Shown here piece after piece: positions 23,748 to 35,930 of a stretch of DNA of 64,000 bases. The translations under genes were made by a program, and so were the position numbers. Location: assembly GCF_009914755.1 (NCBI RefSeq), contig NC_060925.1, one strand, 5' to 3'. The first letter of the stretch is position 1. Each line of letters begins with the position of its first letter. Origin of the DNA: the human T2T-CHM13v2.0 reference genome, Homo sapiens. The notes under the pieces were generated by a model that did no database searches, had not been told where the DNA came from, and saw only the letters and a list, made by a program, of their open reading frames with translations.

Positions 23748-26134
23748 AAAAATCAGTAGCATTTTATATGCCAAAAGAAAACAATTGGAAATATAAACCA
23801 AGAAGGTGATCTCATTTACAATAGCTAAAAAATTCCTAAAAATAGCTAGGAATTAAATTAACCAAACAAGTGAAAGATCTCTACAATGAAAACTATAAAA
23901 TATTGATGGAAGAAATTGAAGTAGACACACACACAAAGAAGATATTCCGTGTTCAGGAATGGAAGAATCAATACCATTAAGACATCTATACTACCCAAAG
24001 TAACCTACAGATTCAAAGCCATCTCTATCAAAATACCAATGACATTCTTCACAGAAATAGAAAAAATAGTACTAAAATTTATATGATACCATAGAAGATG
24101 CAGAAAAGCCAAAGCTATCTTTAGCAAAAAGCACAAAACTAGAGGAATCACATTACCTGACTTCAAATTATGCTACAGAGCTATAGTAAACAAAATAGCA
24201 TGGTAATGGCCTAAAAACAGACACATAGATCAATGGAACAGAATGGAGAACCCAGATGTAAATTCATAGATCTACAGTGAATGCATTTTTGACAAAGGTA
24301 CCAAAAACATACATTGAGGAAAGCACAGTCCTTTTAGTAAATGGTGCTGGGAAAACTGGATATCCACATACAAAATAATGAAACTAGACCTGTATCTCTC
24401 ACCATACACATGGATTAAATGAAAATGGATTGAAGAATTAAATGTAAGACCTCAAACTATGGAACTACTATAGGAAAACACTGGGGAAACTCCCTAGGAC
24501 ATTGGACTGGGTAAAGATTTCTTGAGAAAAATACCTCCAAAACATAGGCAACCAAAGCAAAAATGGACAAGTGGGATCATGCCAAGTTAAAAAGCTGCAA
24601 AGCAAAGAAACAACAAAGTGAAGAGACAACCCAGAGAATAAGAGAAAATATTTGCAAACTATCTACCTGACAAGGGATTAATAACCAGAATATATAAGGA
24701 ACTCGAACTACTCAACAGGAAAAAATATAATAATCCCATTAAAAATGGGTAAAATATCTGAATACACATTTCTCAAAAGAAGGCATACACATGGCAAACA
24801 GGTATATGAAAAAGTTCTCATCATCATTGATCTTCAGAGAAATGCAAATCAAAACTGCAATAAGATATCATCTTACCCCAGCTAGAGAGGCTTTTATATA
24901 AGAGACAGGCAATAACAAATGCTGGCAAGAATGTAGAGAAAAGGGGACCTTCATACACTGTTGGAGGGAATGTAAATTAGTACAACCACTATGGAGAACA
25001 GTTTGGAGGCTCCTCAAATAACCAAAAACAGAACTACCATATGATTCAGCAATCTCATTGCTAGGTATATACCCAAAAGAAAGGAAATCAGTATATTGAA
25101 GAGATATCTGCACTCCCATTTTTATTGTAGCACTATTCACAATAGCCAAGATTTGGAAGCAGTCTAAGTGTCCATCAACAGATGAATGGATAAAAAAATG
25201 TGGTACATATACATAATGGAGTACCATTCAGCCATAACAAATGAGATCTTGTCACTTGCGACAACATGGATGGAACTGGAGGGCATTATGTTAAGTGAAA
25301 TTAGCCAGGCACAAAAAGACAAACATTGTATGTTCTTACTTATTTTGGGAGCTAAAAAGGTAAAACAATTAAGCTTATGGAGGTGGACAGTAGATTGATG
25401 GTTACTAGAGGCTGGAAATGGTAGTGGGGTTGGGGGAAAGTAGAGATGGTTTTGTACCCACTAACGTGGGTACAAAAATAGATAGACTGAATAAGAACTA
25501 GTATTTGATAGCACAACAGGGTGACTACAGCCAACAATAATTTATTGCACATTTAAAAATAAAAGAGTATAACTGGATCGTTTGTAACACAAAGAAAGCA
25601 TAAATGCTTGAGGTATTGGATACTCCATTTACTCTCAGGTGATTATTACACATTGTATGCCTGTATTAAAATACCTCATGTGCCCCATAAACATGTATAC
25701 CTACTATATAACAAAACACAGAAAAAAAGGAAAAAATTGCATAATTGTAGTAATAGGGTAGTATTATTTTAGGCGATAGATCTTCAAATTCTTTGCTTAA
25801 ATAAGTAATCTAGCAGTATCAAGGGTTTTAGTTATTGTTTCTGCAATCGTGAAAAAGGGGAAAAATATAATATTCCTTTTGGGCTTAAAGAAAAAAATCA
25901 GAATTGATTATATATATTAGAAAACAGAGATGTTAAACATAAATATTATGGCAACAATTATTAAAAAGAAAACGGTATGGAATTACAAACATTTTTGAAA
26001 GCTAAAGGTTATTTTCATGGGCCTTAGCAAGATCCTTTGAAGTCTAGATGTCTGTAAGACACTTCTGTTTTAAAAAAAATTTTGCAAGCCTAGCTTCCAA
26101 AAATGGAGAAGAATTTGGAAAGGGAGCATGTCCC

Positions 26135-26400
26135 ATGTTATAGGCTGAATTGTGTCCCATGATGATTCCATTGTTGGAGCCCTAACTCCCAGTTCCTCCG
26201 AATGTGACTACATTTGGAAACAGAATCTTTAAAGAGATAAAGACCAGATATAGTCTCATAGACAGAGGGAAGACCATGTGAGGGTGGAGCAAGAAGAGGG
26301 CCACCTGCAAGCAAAGGAGGCAGGCCTCACAAGAAACCAATTTCTGTTGTTTAACATACCCAGTCTGTGATTTTTTAAATGACGGTCCTGTAAAGGAATA
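26135..26400. mobile_element. MLT1-type MaLR LTR fragment
   Basis: TGTTATAGGCTGAATTGTGTCCC start and GAATGTGACTACATTTGGAAACAG motif. Confidence 0.65.
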
Positions 26401-27959
26401 CATCCACTGTTGGCAAATTTTTCGTCTAGGAGAGGATTAGTCGTTAAGCAAGAGAGCAAACACGCATATAACAGGCATTGCAAGATAAGTAAACATTTAC
26501 GCAGCATTTTCAGAACATATTGGGAAAATAAAAGTCTTCCTAGCATAATATTTGTAAAGAATCCTCTTAAGGAGAACGTTGAGCAATCACATAGCAAAGA
26601 GTGTCTTCACCTACTTTCTGTATGATAATAAGGGCCCTGACAAACAAAAAAGCAACATTAATTACAACTGATACAAGAGTACCCCTGGCATCTCCCAAGT
26701 GTGTTACCTGTTATCCTTTAGTTATTGCTAGAACTGGTGAGAACTACTAAGCATGGCTAAAAAGATGTTGTCTGATTGCCCAAGAATTCTCATCAGCTTC
26801 TCACTGAGGAGTTAGGAGAAGTTGATACCTGAATGAGGTGTCATATGTGGTGCTCATTATGTCCAGGCAGTTTTAATCCTTTTTTATACCTTCATACATT
26901 CCTGAATTAAAAAATCACTTGAGATATTCTCACGAATATATGGTCTCACTGTCTAGGTCCTGCCTGATTATTGCAGACAAAAGTCTTGTGCTCAGAGTGA
27001 GCAAAGCCCTGCAAACAGTGAAAATATGGAGAAGAAAGATTTAATCAGGTTCATTCATTTCCCTATACTTTCTCTCATGAGAGAATTATCACACTCTATG
27101 ACTGATTTACAGGTTTCTTTCTGTAGAGTTTGAGCTTTTATCTGTCTACTCTTTGTAATCTAAGTGTTTAGCATAACATTTGATATTTGTAGATGATTGT
27201 TTATAACTGAAATATAATAACTGAAATATAATAAAAAGGAACTTTGCTTTCTATTGTCTTATATTCTGAGTTACCTACATCTTTAAGTTTTTTTCTTCAC
27301 TATGAAAAATAAAGATTATTTTAAAAACTCATTAATTCTGCTTTGGTGCTTTTGCCTTTTCTGAATCTAAACATTCATGTCTTTCATTATTTCTGGAAAA
27401 TTTTCAGCCATGCTTTCTTTAAATATTTCCTCTTCCAATTGTGTGTTTTGTCTTTTAATGAAATTCCTATTGGGCTCATATTGGATTTCATACTAATTTT
27501 CATATATCTTAACTTCTTTCGTATTCAACACTTCTTTATCTCTATATTGCATTAGAGGAAATTCTTCAGCTCTCCCAATTTAGAAGTCTTTTTAAATTGC
27601 TTTCTGTCTTTGTTGTTTAATCTACTCATTGAGTTTTTATAGTAATTAGCGTTTATATTTCTAGAAGTTTAATTTGCTTTAAAATATGTTTGATATTTTT
27701 TGATAATGTCTTTTCAAACCTTTTGACTTTAAGGTTTTAAAATATAAATTCCTCTATATGTGATATCTTAGGGAAATGAAACTATTTATTCTGTCTGCCA
27801 ACTTTCCTTCATCATGGAATCTTTCTCCCTGTGCTAAGTTTGGATGGTGACCTCATCTTAGGAAAGGCTTTTTGTGAAATATCCTTTGCAGCTTGTATTG
27901 AGGGTGGTTCTCTTGAGATAACTTTGCTTTAAATTCCACCAGGTGGCACACCTGGAATT

Positions 27960-27963
<4 letters not shown>

Positions 27964-27990
<27 letters not shown>

Positions 27991-28271
27991 GAGACAGAGA
28001 CTTGCTCTGTCGCCCAGACTGGAGTGCAGAGGCGCGATCTTGGCTCACAGCAACCTCCGCCTCCTGGGCCCAAGAGATTCTCGTGCCTAGGCCTCCTGAG
28101 TAGCTGAGATTACAGTTGTGCGCAACCACGCCTGGCTAATTTTTGTCTTTTTAGTAGTGACAAAGTTTCGCCATGTTGGCCAGGCTGGTCTGAAACTCCT
28201 GAACTCAGGTGATCCGCCCGCCTAGGCCTCTCAAAATGCTGGGATTATAGGTGTGAGCCACTGTGCACAGC
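27964..28271 (-). repeat. AluS within old L1M remnant
   Basis: Alu dimer with (GTTTT)n tail; TSD TGGAATTAC(A/T)TTT. Confidence 0.92.
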
Positions 28272-29234
28272 ATGGAATTACTTTTAAAATTAATTTCTTA
28301 GTTTGTGAATTTCAGGCTCATGCAAGTAGATACTTTTGAACTTCAAACTCAGACCTGTGATTAGCAATTCTCAGAAGGAGAAAAACCAAAAAACAATCCA
28401 ATCCATATAATTGGATGGATTTTTTTTCTACTCTATTTGTCCATTCTATCACTGAAGTGAGGATATAGCAGAAGCCTCAGTTGCAAGTCTTATTACCTAT
28501 TTTTTTTTTTTTAAATCCTAAGGCCTTGTTTCCTGATCCAAGTGACTAACAGTAGCCAAACTCCTAGGGATCTATACAAGACAATGCTTAATATGTCCAG
28601 GTGTGGATCCTGTTTGCCTTTCTGGGTTTCCATTTCTTTGCCCCCTAGAGAGCTTTCTTTATTTCATTGTAAATGCAGCTATGCATTTAAAAATAATTTT
28701 TAAAAATCTTGCATTTCTGGGTGTTTTGTGTTAGTATGTCTTTGCAGGTCATGTAGTGTGCTGTCTTTCCAGAAGCAGAATCCCTGGCTGTTTTATGTGT
28801 TACGCACAGAAATCCAAGGGTCATGTGACAAGGCAATGCTTCAGGTTAGGAAAGTGAGTCCAGGAGGAGGGACTGAGGTTAGATTGAATGGATAGGAAGT
28901 ATGAGAAATTGAAGAGGAGGCTCTGGGAGCTGAGATAAAGGCTAAGGGAGGATGACAGTGAAGACAGAGAAGAGAGAGAAAGGTGGAGGAAGAACACATG
29001 TATGGGAAGGAACAGGAGCACAGTAAGACACAAAGAATAAGCCATAGTGATATTAGAGACTATTCAGTTCTTTCAATCTAGTTATTTTACAGATAAAGAA
29101 ACTGAGGCCAAAGTGTTAAGGATCTCTCCAATTCAACACCTCCAACAGGTGTCCCATGTGGGGGTTCATCTTGACTCAGTCTACAGCTCCTTTTACTGTA
29201 AGAGATGTGCGTGAGAGGCCAGCAGCACACAGGC

Positions 29235-29390
29235 AGATAAAGCGAGTCCTTCCAGAAGCCAGAATGGCAAGGAAAAACTTGAAGCAGAGTGAGAGGGAAA
29301 ATGAGAAGCCCAGAAAAGGCATGTGGTTATGAGAGGCAGTGGTTTCTGTGGCCAGGAAATTGAGGTTTCTGTTAGTGAAGAGGAGGAAGT
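29235..29390 (+). promoter_or_regulatory. Candidate haematopoietic promoter motifs upstream of the alternative CD1A exon
   Basis: AGATAA (GATA) 29235, TGTGGTT (RUNX) 29322, GAGGAAGT (ETS/PU.1) 29383. Motif matches only. Confidence 0.3.
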
Positions 29391-29477
29391 CAGATGAGAT
29401 GAGACCATGTGGGGAGGGGAGCTTTCATATCTGGGTTCTGAGGAGAGCTTCAATGGGGAAGGAAGAATTTAGGAGCC

Positions 29478-29502
29478 ATGTTTGCGTTTGGAGGAGCAAC
29501 AG
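29478..29502 (+). CDS. CD1A: Candidate alternative first coding exon of CD1A (MFAFGGAT+G, no signal peptide)
   Basis: GCCATG start, 25 nt, consensus donor AG|GTAAGT in phase 1, compatible with CD1A exon 2. I recall an annotated CD1A isoform starting MFAFGGATG (not verified). Confidence 0.65.
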
Positions 29503-29859
29503 GTAAGTGCTGCTACAGTGAACAGGAACATGCTTTTGGCCTGAACACCAATGGTTCAAGAAAGTGGATCCTGGGGAAAGGTTTGGTGGCAAAGGGAAGA
29601 ATATGGACTTGCCTAGGATAGCTGGGACACCTGTCTGATTGAGTTCTAATCAGGGTATATGTTATTCACACTAGTTTGCTTCTCTGGGGTTTCCTGTGTC
29701 CAGGGAGTACAAAATTATCAGTGATTAGTGATAGCCATCCCCTTCTCTCTTAATTATTTTCCTTTTCTCCAGTTCTGGTCACCTTCCTTACCTATTTTAT
29801 CTCTTGATTTTTGCCTAGCATTCTGCTCTTTCTCAGCCCCCACCCCCAATTTCTCAGCA

Positions 29860-30065
29860 CCCCCAGCCAGCTCCCAAGAAGCCCTGTTCCCTTCTGTTCC
29901 CTCCTTCAGATCCTGCCCTGTACCCATCATAGCTGAGTGAACACTCAGGAGTGGAGTTGGCTGGGAAAATTGCAGACCCACAGTAGGACTACAGCTCTCA
30001 CCAGCTGCTGCCTGCGTCTCTGATAAAGATCAGCTCTGCCCACAGAAAGCTGGGGTGGAGATACT
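29860..30065 (+). pseudogene. Degenerate CD1-family alpha1-domain exon relic
   Basis: Frame from 29904 reads LQILPCTHHS*VNTQEWSWLGKLQTHSR. It aligns without gaps to CD1 alpha1 (CD1D [28 protein letters not shown]; CD1A in this window [27 protein letters not shown]). Preceded by a pyrimidine tract with CAG acceptors. Confidence 0.72.
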
Positions 30066-30271
30066 TGTGGCTTGGCTCCACTTCTCTTTCCAATCTGTGC
30101 CCAACTTCCTCTTCTCCCGCTTCTTCCTTCTTTAGCATCTTTTATTTCCCTGGTGTTTCTGATCAGCTCATAAAACTTTGGTCCCAGAACTCCATTTCTC
30201 AATTAGTTAATTCTCTTTCTTTTCCTTATCAAACCTAAGCTGACTCCTCTTTGCTTTTCTGACCCCATATT

Positions 30272-31553
30272 CAACGGTGTAGGCCACATAATTTGTGGCG
30301 TTGTGCAGAATAGAAATCTGGGGCCCTGTCTTTCTCCATTCAGGCTGCTACAACAGAATACCACAGACTGGGTGGCTTATAAACAACAGAAATTTATTTC
30401 TCACAGTTTCGGAGGCTGGGAAGTCCAAGATCAAGGAAGATTCAGTGTCTAGTGGAGGCCTGCTTTCTGGTACATAGAGTACACTTTCTGGATGTGTCCT
30501 TACATGGTGGAAGGGGTCAGGGGTCTCTCTTGGGTCTCTTATAAGGGAACTGATCACATTCATGAGGGCTCCAATCTCATAATCTAATCACCTCCCAAAG
30601 GCCCCACTTCCTAATAACATAACATTGGGGGTTAGAATTTCAACATATGAATTTTGGGAAGACACAAAGATTCAGAACATAGCAGGTCTGTATTCAAATA
30701 GGCAGGAGAAGAGTGCTTTTAAAGGTATTAAAATATAAAACTTTTTCATTCCTTCTGAAGTTTCTCTCTCTTTCTGTCTCAACCTGTTATGGTGTTTTGT
30801 TTTGTTATTCTTGTTTGTTTAATTTGCTAATGTTGTACCCCTTGGGCACAGGGATACTCACAGTGTGAGCACAGAGGCTCTTAGGTGCCTGGGGGCCGCA
30901 CTCCATGACTCCGGCGCATGCAAGCTGCCCACTGGCTGCTGGGTTCCCCTTGCTGGGAAGAGGAAGTCAGTCTCTCCTTCCCACAGTGGCCACTCCAACC
31001 CTCCACAGATGGGTGACCACCATGAAATTGCAACCACTGTATGGAGATGCACTTGATTCTTGGATCAAGGGTGGGAAAGCATGTCGTCCTGATCTGTCTC
31101 AAAACACTCTGTGGTGCAGCCTGGGTGGGGATGGCTAAAGCCAACCTCTGTGCAGACACTGTGGGATGCATGCCCCCAAATCTTATTCTCCCTGTGTCCC
31201 TGGCAAAAGCAAGGGAATTGTGAAAGGTGATGGCAGAAGGGGCCACCTCTGCTGATGAGATCAGACGGCTGTATGGGCAGACAGTGGCAGGGTAGTGGTG
31301 GACAGGAGGGCAAGAATTGCCTGTGGCCCCAGACATTGGGGAGCAGATGGCAGAGAATCAGTGCTGGGGAGGTGAAGTGATGGGAGCCAAGACCACATGT
31401 CAGCAAAGAAGCCCTCACACAAGTTTTTTTTGGCTCATTTGACTTCATTTATAAAACACACATTAAGATAAAATTATGAAGAATTTAAGGATGATGATCA
31501 TAGGGCATCAACTATGATGCTGCATTGGTTGCGTGCCCCATGAAGCAAGCCCG
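30272..31553. mobile_element. MER45-family hAT DNA transposon interrupted by an MLT1A LTR
   Basis: Start resembles MER45 (CATAATTTGTGG..GTGCAGAATAGAAATCTGGGGCCC); end GCTGCATTGGTTGCGTGCCCCATGAAGCAAGCCCG resembles the MER45 terminus. Confidence 0.65.
30327..30684. mobile_element. MLT1A-type MaLR solo LTR
   Basis: TACCACAGACTGGGTGGCTTATAAACAACAGAAATTTATTTCTCACAG ... ATTCAGAACATAGCA. Confidence 0.85.
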
Positions 31554-32018
31554 GGATATACAATACACCGATTAACTCACTATTTGGGGGATGATCCTGA
31601 CTTTGTCTCTTTACAACCTTCGGAAAATTTTGCCTCTTTCAGACTTTCCATCCTACAACTCTGGTTAGCTCAGTCTTCCCCAACCATTTCTGCCATCTTC
31701 CACCTTGGTCTCAGTCATGCGGATGTCTTGTGCCTGATCAGACCAATGTTGGTCCTCTCTTCCTATCTCTCTCACCTTTTCATTCCCTGCTCTTTGCATT
31801 AACTTGGGAAACATTTGTGTGTGTATGCTAGCTTTAGTGCCCTCATTTTGTTACCTTGGCGTGAAGTCTGCCGTCTCTGCAGCTCTATTTCATTTGAATG
31901 AGGGAGAAGCCTCATAAAGTTTTAAAAGAGCTTTTTAAGGATTACAGTCCCTATATCTCTAAGGTTTTCCCAGGACCCATTCCACATGAGAAATCAGGAT
32001 AAGCTTGCTAAACTTGTA

Positions 32019-32441
32019 CAGCTGACCCTTGAATAACATGGGGGTTAGGAGTGATGACGGCCCCGTGCAGTCAAAAATCCATGTATAACTTTTGACTTTT
32101 CCAAATCTTAACTATGAATAGCCTACTATTGGCTGGAAGCCTTACTGCTAACATAAACAGTTGATGAACACATATTTTGTATGTTATATGTATTATATAT
32201 GATATTCTTAAAGTAAGCAAGAGAAAAGAAAATATTTTAAAGAAAATCAGAAGCGAGAGAAAATATATCTGCTATTTATTAAGTGGATCATCACATGTTC
32301 GTCTTCATTGTCTTCATGTACAGTAGGCAGAAGAGGAGGAGGAAGAGGAGTTGCCTTGTCTTAGTGGTGGCAGAGTCAGAAGAAAATCCACGTGTGAGTA
32401 AATGCACACAGTTGAAACCCATGTTATTCAAGAGTGAACTG
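32019..32441. mobile_element. Tigger2a-like TcMar DNA transposon
   Basis: Terminal inverted repeats CAGCTGACCCTTGAATAACATG / CATGTTATTCAAGAGTGAACTG; TA flank on the left. Confidence 0.85.
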
Positions 32442-32951
32442 CAGTGTGAGGGTTTGAGTCAATCTAGTCTGGAGCTAACTGGGTTTGCTGTTTTGCTGTT
32501 GCTGCAATAGTCTTCAAGTTCCTCTACATTGCTCTGTTCCTAGGGTGGGGCTGGTTTGCCAGAAGGTTTTGTTAATGTCTCCACTCTCAGGTTTTGGTGT
32601 TTCCTTTGTGAAATATCTCTAGAGGACCTACCTCCATGCTTTCCATTCTTCTAGCTGCAGACTCGTCTTGTAATTGATATTTATGATACTGCTTGGGAGA
32701 AGGAGTAAGAGCACTGTCTTTTGTTCTGGTGCAGTCTCATTCTTAGGCAGGTCAGTTGTTTTTGAATTTTTTGAAGTTTTGTCATGTAAGTGTTCCTGCC
32801 TTTCTTCCAGCAGTTTGGGACCTCTAATAGTCTGGAACCAGGATGTTTTCTCGTTCTTTCCCATTGTTTTTCTTCTCCTCAGCTGCAGTGGGTTTTCACA
32901 TATGCCCTGAGGGCAGCAGGGCTTTCTGCCCTTTCCCCACCAGGTTAGGGC

Positions 32952-33220
32952 TTTTTTTTTTCTTTTAGATGGAATATTGCTCTGTCACCCAGGCTGGAGT
33001 GCAGTGGCGCGATCTCGGCTCACTGCAACCTCCGCCTCCCGGGTTCAAGTAGCTGAGACTACAGGTGTGCACCACCACAACTGGCTAATTTTTGTATTAT
33101 TACTACAGATGGGGTTGCACCATGTTGGCCAGGTTGGTCTCGAACTCCTGACCTTGTGATCCGCCCACGTTGGCCTCCCAAAGTGCTGAGATTACAGGTG
33201 TGAGCCACCGCACCCGGCCA
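32952..33220 (-). repeat. AluS with small internal deletion
   Basis: Alu motifs; poly-T at the left end. Confidence 0.9.
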
Positions 33221-33736
33221 CGGTTTTTTTTTTTTTCTATGTTGCAATAGAGGAGATGGGTCTGGTTGGGACTTACTACCCTTCCCATGCAGTAGCTGTT
33301 CTCATACCTCAGGCCCGCATCATGAGAGAGGATTTATCTGGTCTACATCTCTGACCCTAATGTTTCAGAAGACCCTGGTGAGGTTCATAGAAAAAGGCTT
33401 AGAGACTGATGCGAATTTCCCTGTTTTTGTGACTCCCAGGGCTTCTATATACTCATGCTAGCCTTTACTAATTTGTCTAAAATTTTAGCTGAATTCTTAT
33501 TCTTACTGGCTTGTATAATATCTGGCATCTGTCCCAAGTAAACAAGGGTTTGCATTCCATCTGTCCTTTGAGGAGTCTGTCTTTCTTTATATTTTGGGTT
33601 AACTGGTTGCCTTGATATTTCAGTTCTTTGATAAATTCAAGTTATGATTTTGATAATCTGGCTTCAAAAAATTATAAGTATGAAAATGAAGCTCTTTCCA
33701 GCTTTTTGCATGCTAATCTTAACTTTAAAAAAATTA

Positions 33737-34213
<477 letters not shown>

Positions 34214-35120
34214 TTAGCTTCAGATACTTTTTTTTTGAAAACCAAAAAATAGTAAATAGCCCAGACACATTTATATGGATGATATCTACAAAGCACAAAC
34301 ATATATTTAGAAGCCCTTCAACAGTTACAAGCAGCGTAAAAGAGGAATGTAAATGTGTCCGGCAAAGACTCATTTATAACAAAACAACCCTGAAACATCC
34401 AAATAGGACTAATAAAAAGGGATCCTGGGATAAAGACTTTGGAATACTCCATTAACTTCACTGCTCACAAGTTCTGACTAGTTTCTTATAAGTAATAGGA
34501 CATTTATAGCAGGATCTTTTATGTAAATCTCATGCCAGTAACTTGTACTTTTATCCTAAATAAAACTGTATGAGATTCTCATCTCACTACATAGGGTTAC
34601 AAGTAACTTTTATGATATCTTTAAAAAGTTTCATGTTGAATATCACCTCCATAATTAAAAAATGGATGCATAGACTGAATTCATTCATTCATTTGACAAA
34701 TATTCACTAAGCACCTACCACTTGTGAGATACTCTGTTAGGTGGGGATACAGTATGATAACTGTATGGAACTAACACTCCAAGTCAAACATTGAAGTCAA
34801 AATTCTGGGCTGGCGTACATTAGTTAGGAGCCCCCATTTTAGAAAATATTATTTCAAGCAGGCCTTGTTTTTATCCAGAGAGTGTATACAGTATAATAAA
34901 ACTCAGTACACCAAGATTTATATTTCATGGCGTGTTTTTCTCCCTAAGTAGAGAAAAAGCTCCTTCAGTAAAGTGATTGTGTTGTCAACCACTGCATATT
35001 CTTAAGTGTACCAAGATGCTTGACTCCAGGCAGGTGCTAAGAGAGACTGTTGGGTGAGTGAATGTATATCAATGAAAATCAAACAGAGGAAATTTTCTTT
35101 ATATGTTTTAGTGTTCCTGT

Positions 35121-35122
<2 letters not shown>

Positions 35123-35164
<42 letters not shown>
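35123..35164 (+). repeat. Poly(T)42 tract upstream of CD1A
   Basis: Direct count. Confidence 0.95.
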
Positions 35165-35165
<1 letters not shown>

Positions 35166-35761
35166 TGATGGTTACTGGCTCTTCTCTAAGAATAATGGAG
35201 AAAAGGTGTTAGTTTGTACTGTCGCACAGGGCAGTCGTAGGAGACTCTGAAAAAGCAAATAAATCAATGTTAAATCAGAAATGTGAATGTAGTAAGGGGC
35301 TGAAGAGACAGGGGAAGAGAATACATGGGAAAATATTGAAAAGGACAGAGTGATCAAAAAGAGCAGGGACATGGGAGCATTGGGCAGCACACTGGGAGCC
35401 ATTTCACTTTATGCTCTTATTGTATGATTGAGAAAAAAATGTCCTTAGTGGTTAAGTGGCTTTTCAATGCCACATCAGACTTGTTCCATAGCAGTTGAAT
35501 TAGGGGAAGGTGAATAAGTTGGAGGTTGGTGACAAGGAGAGAAGCTGGAACAGAGAGGAGAGTCAGAACCAGAGGGAAATGAGAGACTGAGTAGGCATCT
35601 CAGGGTTTTTGAAGGAGTGGATTTTCTTTGTTGCAGTCAGGGGAGGTTTGTCTGTTGGCTGCAGAAAGAAGTCAGAATAGAGATATCGTGGGGTAGGTTT
35701 GTTTGGAACAGAAATCAAAGACCAATTTTTCTGAGAGAAGGAAATAACATCTGCAAATGAT

Positions 35762-35819: not shown

Positions 35820-35861
35820 GTAAGAACTCTGACAACTGCCCAGTTGGGTGGTGGGTGAAGG

Positions 35862-35930
<69 letters not shown>

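What the first reader, a model, noticed from the sequence alone, without database searches (positions are those of the whole stretch)
29860..30065. Fossil CD1 alpha1 exon: remnant of an extra, lost CD1 paralogue upstream of CD1A
Seen: the + frame at 29904-29987 reads LQI-LPC-THHS-*-VNTQ-EWS-W-LGKLQTHS-R. It aligns without gaps to CD1 alpha1 (CD1D [28 protein letters not shown]). The two lost Trp codons are single-base neighbours of TGG (TGA, AGG). LRL* at about 30012-30023 falls one codon short of the conserved L.PW. SQE just upstream resembles the CD1C exon start ASQE. A long pyrimidine tract with CAG acceptors precedes it. The ORF track misses it because of the stops. Known: humans have five CD1 genes, and CD1 copy number varies widely among mammals. 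Inference: this is a relic of a sixth, long-dead CD1 gene in the same orientation as CD1A. I do not recall it being annotated but cannot confirm that.
Basis: partly seen in the sequence, partly recalled or inferred. Interest (0 to 1): 0.82.

Follow-up and report, generated by a model that had tools for sequence, protein, structure and literature searches.

The report
Decayed CD1 gene stump before CD1A
About six kilobases upstream of the human CD1A coding exons lies the decayed front end of an extra CD1 gene (promoter, first exon, first intron and half of the alpha1 exon); it no longer codes for anything, but its first exon is the one RefSeq lists as an alternative CD1A start exon.

Summary
Window 29873-30023 (+) matches a DNA profile of the five human CD1 alpha1 exons at 35.4 bits, E=2.7e-10, in a 186-kb scan of the CD1 locus. 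The next non-gene hit scores 2.0 bits, and 0 of 2000 dinucleotide shuffles exceed 6.1 bits.

The relic is larger than reported. A CD1 promoter/5'UTR-like stretch (29284-29450, E=1.1e-5), a first exon and a 368-nt intron with an AG acceptor precede the alpha1 piece at the spacing seen in CD1 genes. That first exon (29427-29502) is RefSeq's alternative CD1A first exon (NM_001320652.2). Its ATG sits where the CD1 start codon is expected.

No alpha3 or transmembrane relic follows. One alpha2-like hit is at noise level.

The stretch is single-copy and is not a repeat.

A paralogous copy of the 5' block lies 3.6-5.3 kb upstream of CD1C. It is as diverged as CD1A/CD1C flanks, so the relic probably predates the CD1A/CD1C split.

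It is nearer CD1E/CD1D than CD1A or CD1C.

Whether it was ever a complete sixth gene or only a partial 5' duplication is unresolved. It is an unprocessed pseudogene fragment of moderate interest.

The parts
28269..29250 (+). Upstream part of the relic block. It is homologous only to the sister block upstream of CD1C (chr1:157421691-157422794), not to the functional CD1 genes.
   Evidence: blastn, collinear hits at 28269-28405, 28534-28739 and 28805-29092 with E from 2e-3 to 1e-10. Pooled identity with the sister block is 67.2% over 1047 nt for the whole block 28269-29707.
29284..29450 (+). CD1 proximal-promoter / 5'UTR-like stretch. It contains the box GGAAGTCAGA (29385-29394), which CD1C and CD1E share exactly and CD1A and CD1B share as AAGTCA.
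   Evidence: nhmmer profile of CD1A/B/C/E promoter plus exon 1: 20.3 bits, E=1.1e-5 in 186 kb. 0 of 2000 shuffles exceed 6.4 bits. blastn to CD1E positions -120..+52: 64% identity, E=1e-7. Alignment, box position. Without CD1E in the profile the hit is only E=0.039.
29427..29502 (+). Relic first exon, which is RefSeq's alternative first exon of CD1A (NM_001320652.2, XM_054339535.1). The ATG is at 29478. Only 25 coding nt remain against 58-61 in CD1 genes, with the same phase 1. The donor GT is at 29503.
   Evidence: RefSeq table. MAFFT alignment with CD1 first exons. Extrapolating from the end of the profile hit (29450 = profile position 232) puts the ATG within a few nt of the CD1 start codon; this is inference. 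The donor region ACAGGTAAG is shared with the sister block as ACAGGCAAG. Predicted N-terminus [16 protein letters not shown].
29503..29870 (+). Relic intron 1, 368 nt (292-360 nt in CD1D, A, B and E). It has a 77% pyrimidine 3' end and AG at 29869-70.
   Evidence: blastn to the end of CD1E intron 1 plus its alpha1 exon: 29744-30014, E=4e-5. The sister block aligns to 29707. Composition and AG. Intron sizes.
29871..30023 (+). Relic of the 5' half of a CD1 alpha1 exon (profile positions 3-152 of 267). Lesions are a frameshift near the start, TGA at 29934, AGG at 29985, a 3-nt deletion near 29998, and TGA TAA at 30021-30026. Single-gene queries extend weak similarity to about 30059 (CD1A) and 30092 (CD1E).
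   Evidence: nhmmer 35.4 bits, E=2.7e-10. Found in 5/5 leave-one-out and 5/5 single-gene queries. 0/2000 shuffles reach it. Pfam PF16497 genome scan hit at 29880-29999, profile positions 24-62. The 28-aa piece matches only PF16497, E=0.074.
31903..31967 (+). Possible alpha2-exon remnant, not established and listed only as a candidate.
   Evidence: nhmmer alpha2 profile positions 45-112: 6.4 bits, E=0.32 in the locus and 0.012 in the 7.2-kb sub-region. This score equals the best scores that the shuffle controls of the other two profiles gave.

Best explanation
Window 28269-30023 (+) is an unprocessed (genomic-duplicate) CD1 pseudogene fragment. It comprises an upstream region, a CD1-type promoter, a first exon, intron 1 and the first ~150 nt of the alpha1 exon of a CD1 copy that is none of CD1A-E.

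It is non-coding now. It carries a frameshift, has stops at two of three conserved Trp codons and Arg at the third, and no alpha3 or transmembrane trace follows.

Inferred steps:
- The copy stood upstream of the common ancestor of CD1A and CD1C and was duplicated with it, leaving a second and more eroded relic upstream of CD1C.
- Its lineage is closer to CD1E/CD1D than to CD1A/B/C.
- Its promoter and first exon still fire at some level and splice, in phase, onto the CD1A alpha1 exon. This gives RefSeq isoform 2, whose predicted protein lacks a signal peptide and is therefore unlikely to be a working antigen-presenting molecule.
For: Shown:
- The alpha1 DNA profile hits at 35.4 bits, E=2.7e-10, ranking sixth after the five genes. 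The next hit scores 2.0 bits.
- The hit is robust to dropping any gene from the profile and to shuffling (0/2000).
- An independent promoter profile hits 420 nt upstream on the same strand, E=1.1e-5. Spacing is collinear with CD1E.
- Profile position 3 (the first two exon bases lie just upstream, unaligned) maps to 29873, three bases after an AG at 29869-70 that follows a pyrimidine tract.
- In a whole-genome six-frame scan with Pfam PF16497, the site is one of 18 matches. The others are 10 CD1 exons, PROCR, MR1, MR1P1, HFE and 3 unexplained hits. The site matches profile positions 24-62, in register with the true alpha1 exons.
- The region is single-copy and is not masked as a repeat.
- It retains an intron and a promoter, so it is not a processed copy.
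- The first exon coincides with the RefSeq alternative CD1A exon.
- A sister block upstream of CD1C is 67.2% identical over 1047 nt (K2P 0.438). CD1A/CD1C non-coding flanks give 67.0% (K2P 0.436).
- Single-gene scores rank CD1E 25.6 > CD1D 23.1 > CD1A 18.1 > CD1B 15.4 > CD1C 9.0 bits. The tree places the relic with CD1D+CD1E at 86% bootstrap.
Against: - Protein-level scores are below every curated threshold. PF16497 gives 17.4 bits against a cut-off of 35, E=4.2 genome-wide. tblastn gives E=0.03-0.045, no better than two other hits in the window that I take for chance.
- No alpha3 or transmembrane relic was found, and the alpha2 candidate is at noise level. A complete gene is therefore not demonstrated.
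- Promoter homology leans on CD1E alone; E is 0.039 without it.
- Homology of the ATG and the donor lies outside the statistically supported block and is positional inference.
- The tree rests on 153 nt with a 0.58 branch. The CD1D sister grouping has only 54% support and long-branch attraction is possible.
- The sister block has no alpha1 trace.
- No transcript or cross-species data could be examined here.
Confidence: 0.85

Rival explanations
1. A partial 5' duplication that was never a gene. A segment running from upstream of a CD1 promoter to the middle of the alpha1 exon was copied, as happened on a smaller scale inside CD1C intron 1, and it was dead on arrival.
For: Homology stops inside the alpha1 exon and nothing convincing follows. 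The locus demonstrably makes 5' partial duplications: CD1C intron 1 holds a second promoter-plus-leader copy, E=1.7e-63. The leader coding part is only 25 nt, and the same donor region is already present in the sister block.
Against: The relic is least like its neighbours CD1C and CD1A and most like CD1E/CD1D. It is therefore not a copy of the adjacent gene's own 5' end. A later deletion of the 3' part explains the truncation equally well. The alpha2-like hit lies on the right strand and side, though it is weak.
Confidence: 0.35
2. Chance resemblance in a pyrimidine-rich, low-complexity stretch.
For: tblastn E-values are only 0.03-1.6, and hits that I take for chance in the same window reach 0.015-0.025. 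Pfam gives E=4.2 genome-wide.
Against: The DNA profile gives E=2.7e-10 with the next hit at 2.0 bits. 0/2000 dinucleotide shuffles reach it. It appears in 5/5 leave-one-out profiles. A second, independent profile hit lies at the right spacing and strand. The exon start coincides with an AG.
Confidence: 0.02
3. Part of an interspersed repeat whose consensus happens to contain the motif.
For: Repeats flank the region: an Alu-like repeat at 27955-28304 and a ~350-bp repeat at 30336-30690.
Against: 29250-30100 finds only itself in the whole genome. No masked repeat of 100 nt or more lies in 28305-30334. Its only relatives are CD1 genes and the block upstream of CD1C.
Confidence: 0.01
4. A selected regulatory module: an alternative CD1A promoter and exon kept by selection, with the CD1-like sequence being functional rather than a fossil.
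For: RefSeq curates a transcript that starts here and keeps the reading phase. The GGAAG-containing box survives in both relic blocks.
Against: The two relic blocks differ as much as CD1A/CD1C non-coding flanks do (K2P 0.438 versus 0.436), so there is no sign of constraint. The sister block has lost the ATG and its GT donor. The predicted isoform has no hydrophobic leader. No paper on this transcript was found.
Confidence: 0.1

Closest known systems
Human CD1 genes (CD1A-E), exons 1-2
   Same: Same order and spacing of promoter box, first exon, a ~300-370-nt intron 1 with pyrimidine tract and AG, and a phase-1 alpha1 exon. Alpha1 identity to the paralogues is 51-58%, against 54-72% among the paralogues themselves.
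   Different: There is no open frame, the leader coding part is 25 nt instead of 58-61, and the second half of alpha1 and all later exons are missing. The relic is not assignable to one isoform.
MR1P1, the annotated MHC-class-I-like pseudogene beside MR1
   Same: It is also a decayed tandem copy of an MHC-I-like gene next to its working relative. It was picked up with internal stops by the same Pfam genome scan (19.4 bits against 17.4 bits).
   Different: MR1P1 is annotated in RefSeq as a pseudogene. The CD1 relic has no such annotation in this window, and its first exon is instead filed under CD1A.
Duplicated promoter plus leader exon inside CD1C intron 1 (chr1:157427599-157427936)
   Same: A 5'-end copy of a CD1 gene lying in tandem with a working gene.
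   Different: The CD1C copy is young and nearly full length (E=1.7e-63) and derives from CD1C itself. The relic before CD1A is old, reaches into alpha1, and is not derived from CD1A.
Relic block 3.6-5.3 kb upstream of CD1C (chr1:157421691-157423374)
   Same: It is the closest relative of the finding's 5' block: collinear over ~1.4 kb at 67% identity, with the same box and donor region.
   Different: It has lost the ATG, the GT donor and any alpha1 trace.

Membership tests
CD1 / MHC class I-like antigen-binding domain (Pfam PF16497 MHC_I_3) | Protein match above the curated gathering score (35 bits) | tested here: not met
   17.4 bits, E=4.2 in the genome scan, read through one TGA. The 28-aa piece gives 13.1 bits, E=0.074, with PF16497 as the only family listed. 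The 20-aa piece gives no match. This shortfall is expected for a 50-codon broken fragment.
CD1 gene family (DNA homology) | Significant nucleotide homology to CD1 alpha1 exons, in register with the exon start | tested here: met
   nhmmer 35.4 bits, E=2.7e-10, profile positions 3-152 at 29873-30023. Found in 5/5 leave-one-out profiles. 0/2000 shuffles reach it.
CD1 gene family (gene architecture) | Promoter/first exon ~300-370 nt upstream of a phase-1 alpha1 exon on the same strand | tested here: met
   The promoter profile hits 29284-29450, E=1.1e-5. The donor is at 29503 and the AG at 29869-70, giving a 368-nt intron. The 25-nt coding part leaves phase 1.
CD1 gene family (complete gene) | Alpha2, alpha3 and transmembrane/cytoplasmic exons downstream | tested here: not met
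   There are no alpha3 or TM hits in 28301-35500. The best alpha2 hit is 6.4 bits, E=0.32 in the locus.
Functional protein-coding gene | Open reading frame across the exon | tested here: not met
   TGA at 29934, TGA TAA at 30021-30026, and 1-nt plus 3-nt insertions near the exon start.
Unprocessed (duplicated) pseudogene | Retains intron and promoter of the parent family, lies in the parent cluster, and is disabled | tested here: met
   It lies within the CD1 cluster between CD1D and CD1A.
Processed pseudogene | Intronless cDNA copy, usually dispersed | tested here: not met
   An intron-1-like sequence separates the exon-1-like and alpha1-like parts.
Interspersed repeat | Many copies genome-wide | tested here: not met
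   29250-30100 finds only itself, and the stretch is unmasked.
A specific CD1 isoform (A, B, C, D or E) | Clusters with one isoform in an alpha1 tree | tested here: inconclusive
   Tested with the human paralogues only. The relic groups with CD1D+CD1E at 86% and with CD1D at 54%, on a 0.58 branch over 153 nt. Other mammals could not be added with these tools.
Orthologue of an intact gene in another mammal | Intact gene at the syntenic position elsewhere | not testable with these tools
   No mammalian genome other than this reference was available.

The most novel reading that the evidence does not exclude
The stump is the last trace of a sixth eutherian CD1 lineage, nearer CD1E/CD1D than CD1A/B/C. 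This lineage sat immediately upstream of the CD1A/C ancestor and was copied with it in one two-gene segmental duplication roughly 100 million years ago. Its promoter has outlived its coding body and still launches leaderless CD1A transcripts.
Probability: 0.3. Interest if true: 0.6.

Novelty: new member of a known kind. Interest (0 to 1): 0.4.

Why it matters
The five-gene human CD1 cluster is a textbook case, and a published BLASTN survey of the human genome recovered only the ten alpha1/alpha2 exons of those five genes (bioRxiv 10.1101/046607, text read).

A sixth CD1-derived unit adds three things:
- It adds a data point to the birth-and-death history of the family.
- It suggests that CD1A and CD1C arose by duplication of a larger unit that already carried this copy.
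- It explains where RefSeq's odd signal-peptide-less CD1A isoform gets its first exon and in-phase ATG.

It does not change what is known about CD1 function. The isoform's biological relevance is untested.

Tried and rejected
- **tblastn.** The five CD1 proteins against the window gave only marginal E-values at the site and comparable hits elsewhere that I take for chance: 28921-29196 and 31129-31239. Those two were not confirmed by any DNA profile and I treat them as chance.
- **Whole-genome BLAST.** A search with 29250-30100 found only the query itself, so it could not show the CD1 relationship.
- **LTR-like repeat as a dating marker.** I considered whether the ~350-bp repeat at 30336-30690 and the LTR-like repeat upstream of CD1C are one insertion copied with the block. 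I rejected this. Their best full-length genome matches differ in identity (77-81% versus 66-69%), neither appears among the other's top 40 matches, and their flanks do not align.
- **Global alignment.** Aligning 29650-30400 with the matching part of the CD1C-upstream block was uninformative.
- **Alpha1 in the sister block.** No alpha1 relic was found there.
- **Global intron alignments.** CD1A versus CD1C introns gave 48-60% identity. I did not use these as a clock because such alignments are noise-limited.
- **Literature.** Searches for a human CD1 pseudogene, an alternative CD1A first exon, NM_001320652 and the CD1A promoter found nothing on this relic.
  - PMC5002277: I saw search passages and all of section 4.
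  - PMC5002281: I saw passages only.
  - bioRxiv 10.1101/046607: I read part 1 of 2.
  - All other papers: search listings only. Supplementary files were not consulted.
- **Searches not spent.** I did not run the search for homologous proteins. The only reference-addressable query (one exon, 88 aa) cannot reach full-length CD1 proteins under the length rule.
- **Recalled, not from any call.** The neutral rate used for the ~100 Myr estimate (about 2.2e-9 per site per year), the label 'LTR/MaLR-like' for the repeats, and the ETS-like reading of the GGAAG box.

Full report
**The observation**

The third frame of the + strand (codons from 29862) reads PSQLPRSPVPFCSLLQILPCTHHS*VNTQEWSWLGKLQTHSRTTALTSCCLRL**.

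I rebuilt the five human CD1 proteins from the RefSeq coding exons. CD1D contains [28 protein letters not shown], and tblastn aligns it to 29904-29984 without gaps at 48% identity.

The three Trp positions carry TGA (29934), AGG (29985) and TGA (30021), and the last is followed by TAA. The DNA profile alignment places a 1-nt and a 3-nt insertion between it and the core, which makes a frameshift.

**Is it more than chance?**

Protein-level evidence alone is not convincing.
- tblastn gives E=0.045 (CD1D), 0.032 (CD1E) and 1.6 (CD1C) in the 64-kb window. Two other hits that I take for chance reach 0.015-0.025.
- A six-frame scan of the whole reference genome with Pfam PF16497 returned 18 matches. 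Ten are the alpha1/alpha2 exons of the five CD1 genes. Four lie in PROCR, MR1, MR1P1 and HFE. Three are unexplained. One is window 29880-29999 (+), at 17.4 bits and E=4.2, with one TGA inside.
- That last hit covers profile positions 24-62, in register with the true alpha1 exons, which start at positions 3-22 of the profile.
- Four non-gene hits in 3.1 Gb make a chance hit inside the ~190-kb CD1 cluster very unlikely. The score is nonetheless below Pfam's cut-off of 35 bits.

The DNA evidence is decisive. I assembled chr1:157310001-157496000 (186 kb, from CD1D to CD1E) and scanned both strands with nhmmer profiles built from each coding exon of the five genes.
- The alpha1 profile finds the five genes and then window 29873-30023 (+), profile positions 3-152 of 267, at 35.4 bits and E=2.7e-10. 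The next hit scores 2.0 bits (E=3.9).
- The hit persists in 5 of 5 leave-one-out profiles (E from 5e-11 to 4e-7). It also appears in 5 of 5 single-gene queries: CD1E 25.6, CD1D 23.1, CD1A 18.1, CD1B 15.4 and CD1C 9.0 bits.
- None of 2000 dinucleotide-preserving shuffles of 29771-30123 scored above 6.1 bits.
- The stretch is not a repeat. No masked repeat of 100 nt or more lies in 28305-30334, and 29250-30100 finds only itself in the genome.

**What surrounds it**

- blastn of 27001-33000 against the five gene loci gave, apart from Alu-type repeats, two collinear CD1E matches. One pairs 29286-29443 with CD1E -120..+52 around its transcription start (64%, E=1e-7). The other pairs 29744-30014 with the end of CD1E intron 1 plus its alpha1 exon (E=4e-5).
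- A profile of promoter plus first exon from CD1A, B, C and E hits 29284-29450 (+) at 20.3 bits, E=1.1e-5. None of 2000 shuffles exceeds 6.4 bits.
- This promoter signal depends largely on CD1E. Without CD1E in the profile it falls to E=0.039.
- The alignment shows the box GGAAGTCAGA (29385-29394), which CD1C and CD1E share exactly and CD1A and CD1B share as AAGTCA.

RefSeq's alternative CD1A first exon (29427-29502, coding from the ATG at 29478; NM_001320652.2 and XM_054339535.1) starts inside this homologous stretch.
- Extrapolating from the end of the profile hit puts its ATG within a few bases of the CD1 start codon.
- Its 25 coding bases leave phase 1, like the 58-61-nt leaders of the working genes.
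- The donor at 29503 and the AG at 29869-70 bracket a 368-nt intron, against 292-360 nt in CD1D, A, B and E.
- Homology of the ATG and the donor is positional inference. It lies outside the statistically supported block.
- The predicted isoform starts [16 protein letters not shown] and has no hydrophobic leader.

**What is missing**

The alpha3 and transmembrane profiles find nothing between the relic and CD1A. The best alpha2 hit (31903-31967, +, 6.4 bits, E=0.32 in the locus) is at the level of the shuffle maxima.

Alpha1 similarity fades after about 30023. It extends at most to ~30059-30092 in the single-gene alignments. A ~350-bp interspersed repeat with thousands of copies lies at 30336-30690 and is not part of the relic.

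**A sister relic and the age**

Comparing 25700-35500 with the rest of the locus revealed a collinear series:
- 28269-28405
- 28534-28739
- 28805-29092
- 29255-29707

These match chr1:157421691-157423374, which lies 3.6-5.3 kb upstream of CD1C. The promoter profile hits that block independently (22.8 bits, E=1.9e-6).

The sister block keeps the GGAAG box and the donor-region sequence, but it has lost the ATG and the GT. It shows no alpha1 trace.

Pooled over 1047 aligned bases, the two blocks are 67.2% identical (K2P 0.438). CD1A versus CD1C non-coding flanks, measured with the same kind of local alignment, give 67.0% over 267 bases (K2P 0.436).

The simplest reading is inference: the extra copy already lay upstream of the CD1A/C ancestor and was duplicated with it. 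At a recalled neutral rate of about 2.2e-9 per site per year, that is of the order of 100 million years.

The LTR-like repeats downstream of each block are not the same insertion. Their best genome matches differ in identity, 77-81% versus 66-69%.

**Affinity**

Over the 153 relic bases, identity to the paralogues is 51-58%, highest to CD1E. The paralogues share 54-72% among themselves.

A K2P+G4 tree with 200 bootstraps groups the relic with CD1D+CD1E (86%) and weakly with CD1D (54%), on a branch of 0.58 substitutions per site. Together with the single-gene ranking, this argues that the relic is not a copy of the 5' end of its neighbours CD1A or CD1C. With 153 bases and only human sequences, however, the lineage is unresolved.

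**Interpretation**

The segment is an unprocessed CD1 pseudogene fragment. It keeps a promoter and an intron, lies in the cluster in the orientation of CD1A, and is disabled by a frameshift, stops and truncation.

Whether it is the stump of a once-complete sixth gene or a partial 5' duplication cannot be decided here. Its dissimilarity to the adjacent genes favours a once-complete gene. The absence of alpha3 and transmembrane traces, and the locus's habit of duplicating 5' ends, favour a partial duplication (see the CD1C intron-1 copy).

Its only present-day activity suggested by the annotation is as an alternative start for CD1A transcripts that would encode a leaderless protein. The equal divergence of the two relic blocks and of the gene flanks gives no sign of selective constraint.

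**Is it known?**

RefSeq lists only CD1A and HMGN1P5 in the window (the finding's annotation).
- A review of mammalian CD1 genes describes the human locus without a sixth element. I read the search passages and all of section 4 of PMC5002277.
- A BLASTN survey found exactly ten unique hits, forming five pairs, in the human genome (bioRxiv 10.1101/046607, part 1 of 2 read).
- Seven full-text searches found no description of the relic or of the alternative exon's origin.
- GENCODE, RepeatMasker family names, cross-species alignments and supplements could not be consulted. 'Not previously described' therefore remains unverified.

Noticed in passing
L009:1691-3374 (chr1:157421691-157423374), 3.6-5.3 kb upstream of CD1C and just outside the window: A second, more eroded CD1 5' relic that is paralogous to the finding's block. 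It has a promoter-like hit (E=1.9e-6) and intron-1-like sequence, but it has lost the ATG and GT and has no alpha1 trace. On the opposite strand it overlaps the terminal exon of a Gnomon CD1B model.
   Followed up: yes
L002:3600-3937 (chr1:157427599-157427936), inside CD1C intron 1: A near-complete tandem duplicate of the CD1C promoter and leader exon (E=1.7e-63; leader part E=1.3e-11), with a TAG at the fifth codon. It lies ~305 nt before the alpha1 exon, which is the usual CD1 intron-1 length. The exon now in use therefore looks like the upstream copy, which would explain CD1C's unusually long 1008-nt intron 1.
   Followed up: partly
window 30336-30690: A ~350-bp interspersed repeat with 5402 first-look candidates and 77-81% identity to its best copies. 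It is LTR-like by recall. Only 30335-30440 appears in the table of masked repeats of 100 nt or more.
   Followed up: partly
window 31903-31967 (+): A weak alpha2-exon-like stretch on the right strand and side of the relic (6.4 bits; E=0.32 in the locus, 0.012 in the sub-region). It cannot be distinguished from chance.
   Followed up: partly
window 29427-29502 spliced to 36180 (NM_001320652.2): The curated CD1A isoform 2 would begin [16 protein letters not shown], with no hydrophobic signal sequence. No paper naming this transcript was found.
   Followed up: partly
window ~35860-35930, CD1A intron 1: A (CT)n(GT)n microsatellite lies just after the CD1A leader exon. It was seen in the multiple alignment.
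   Followed up: no
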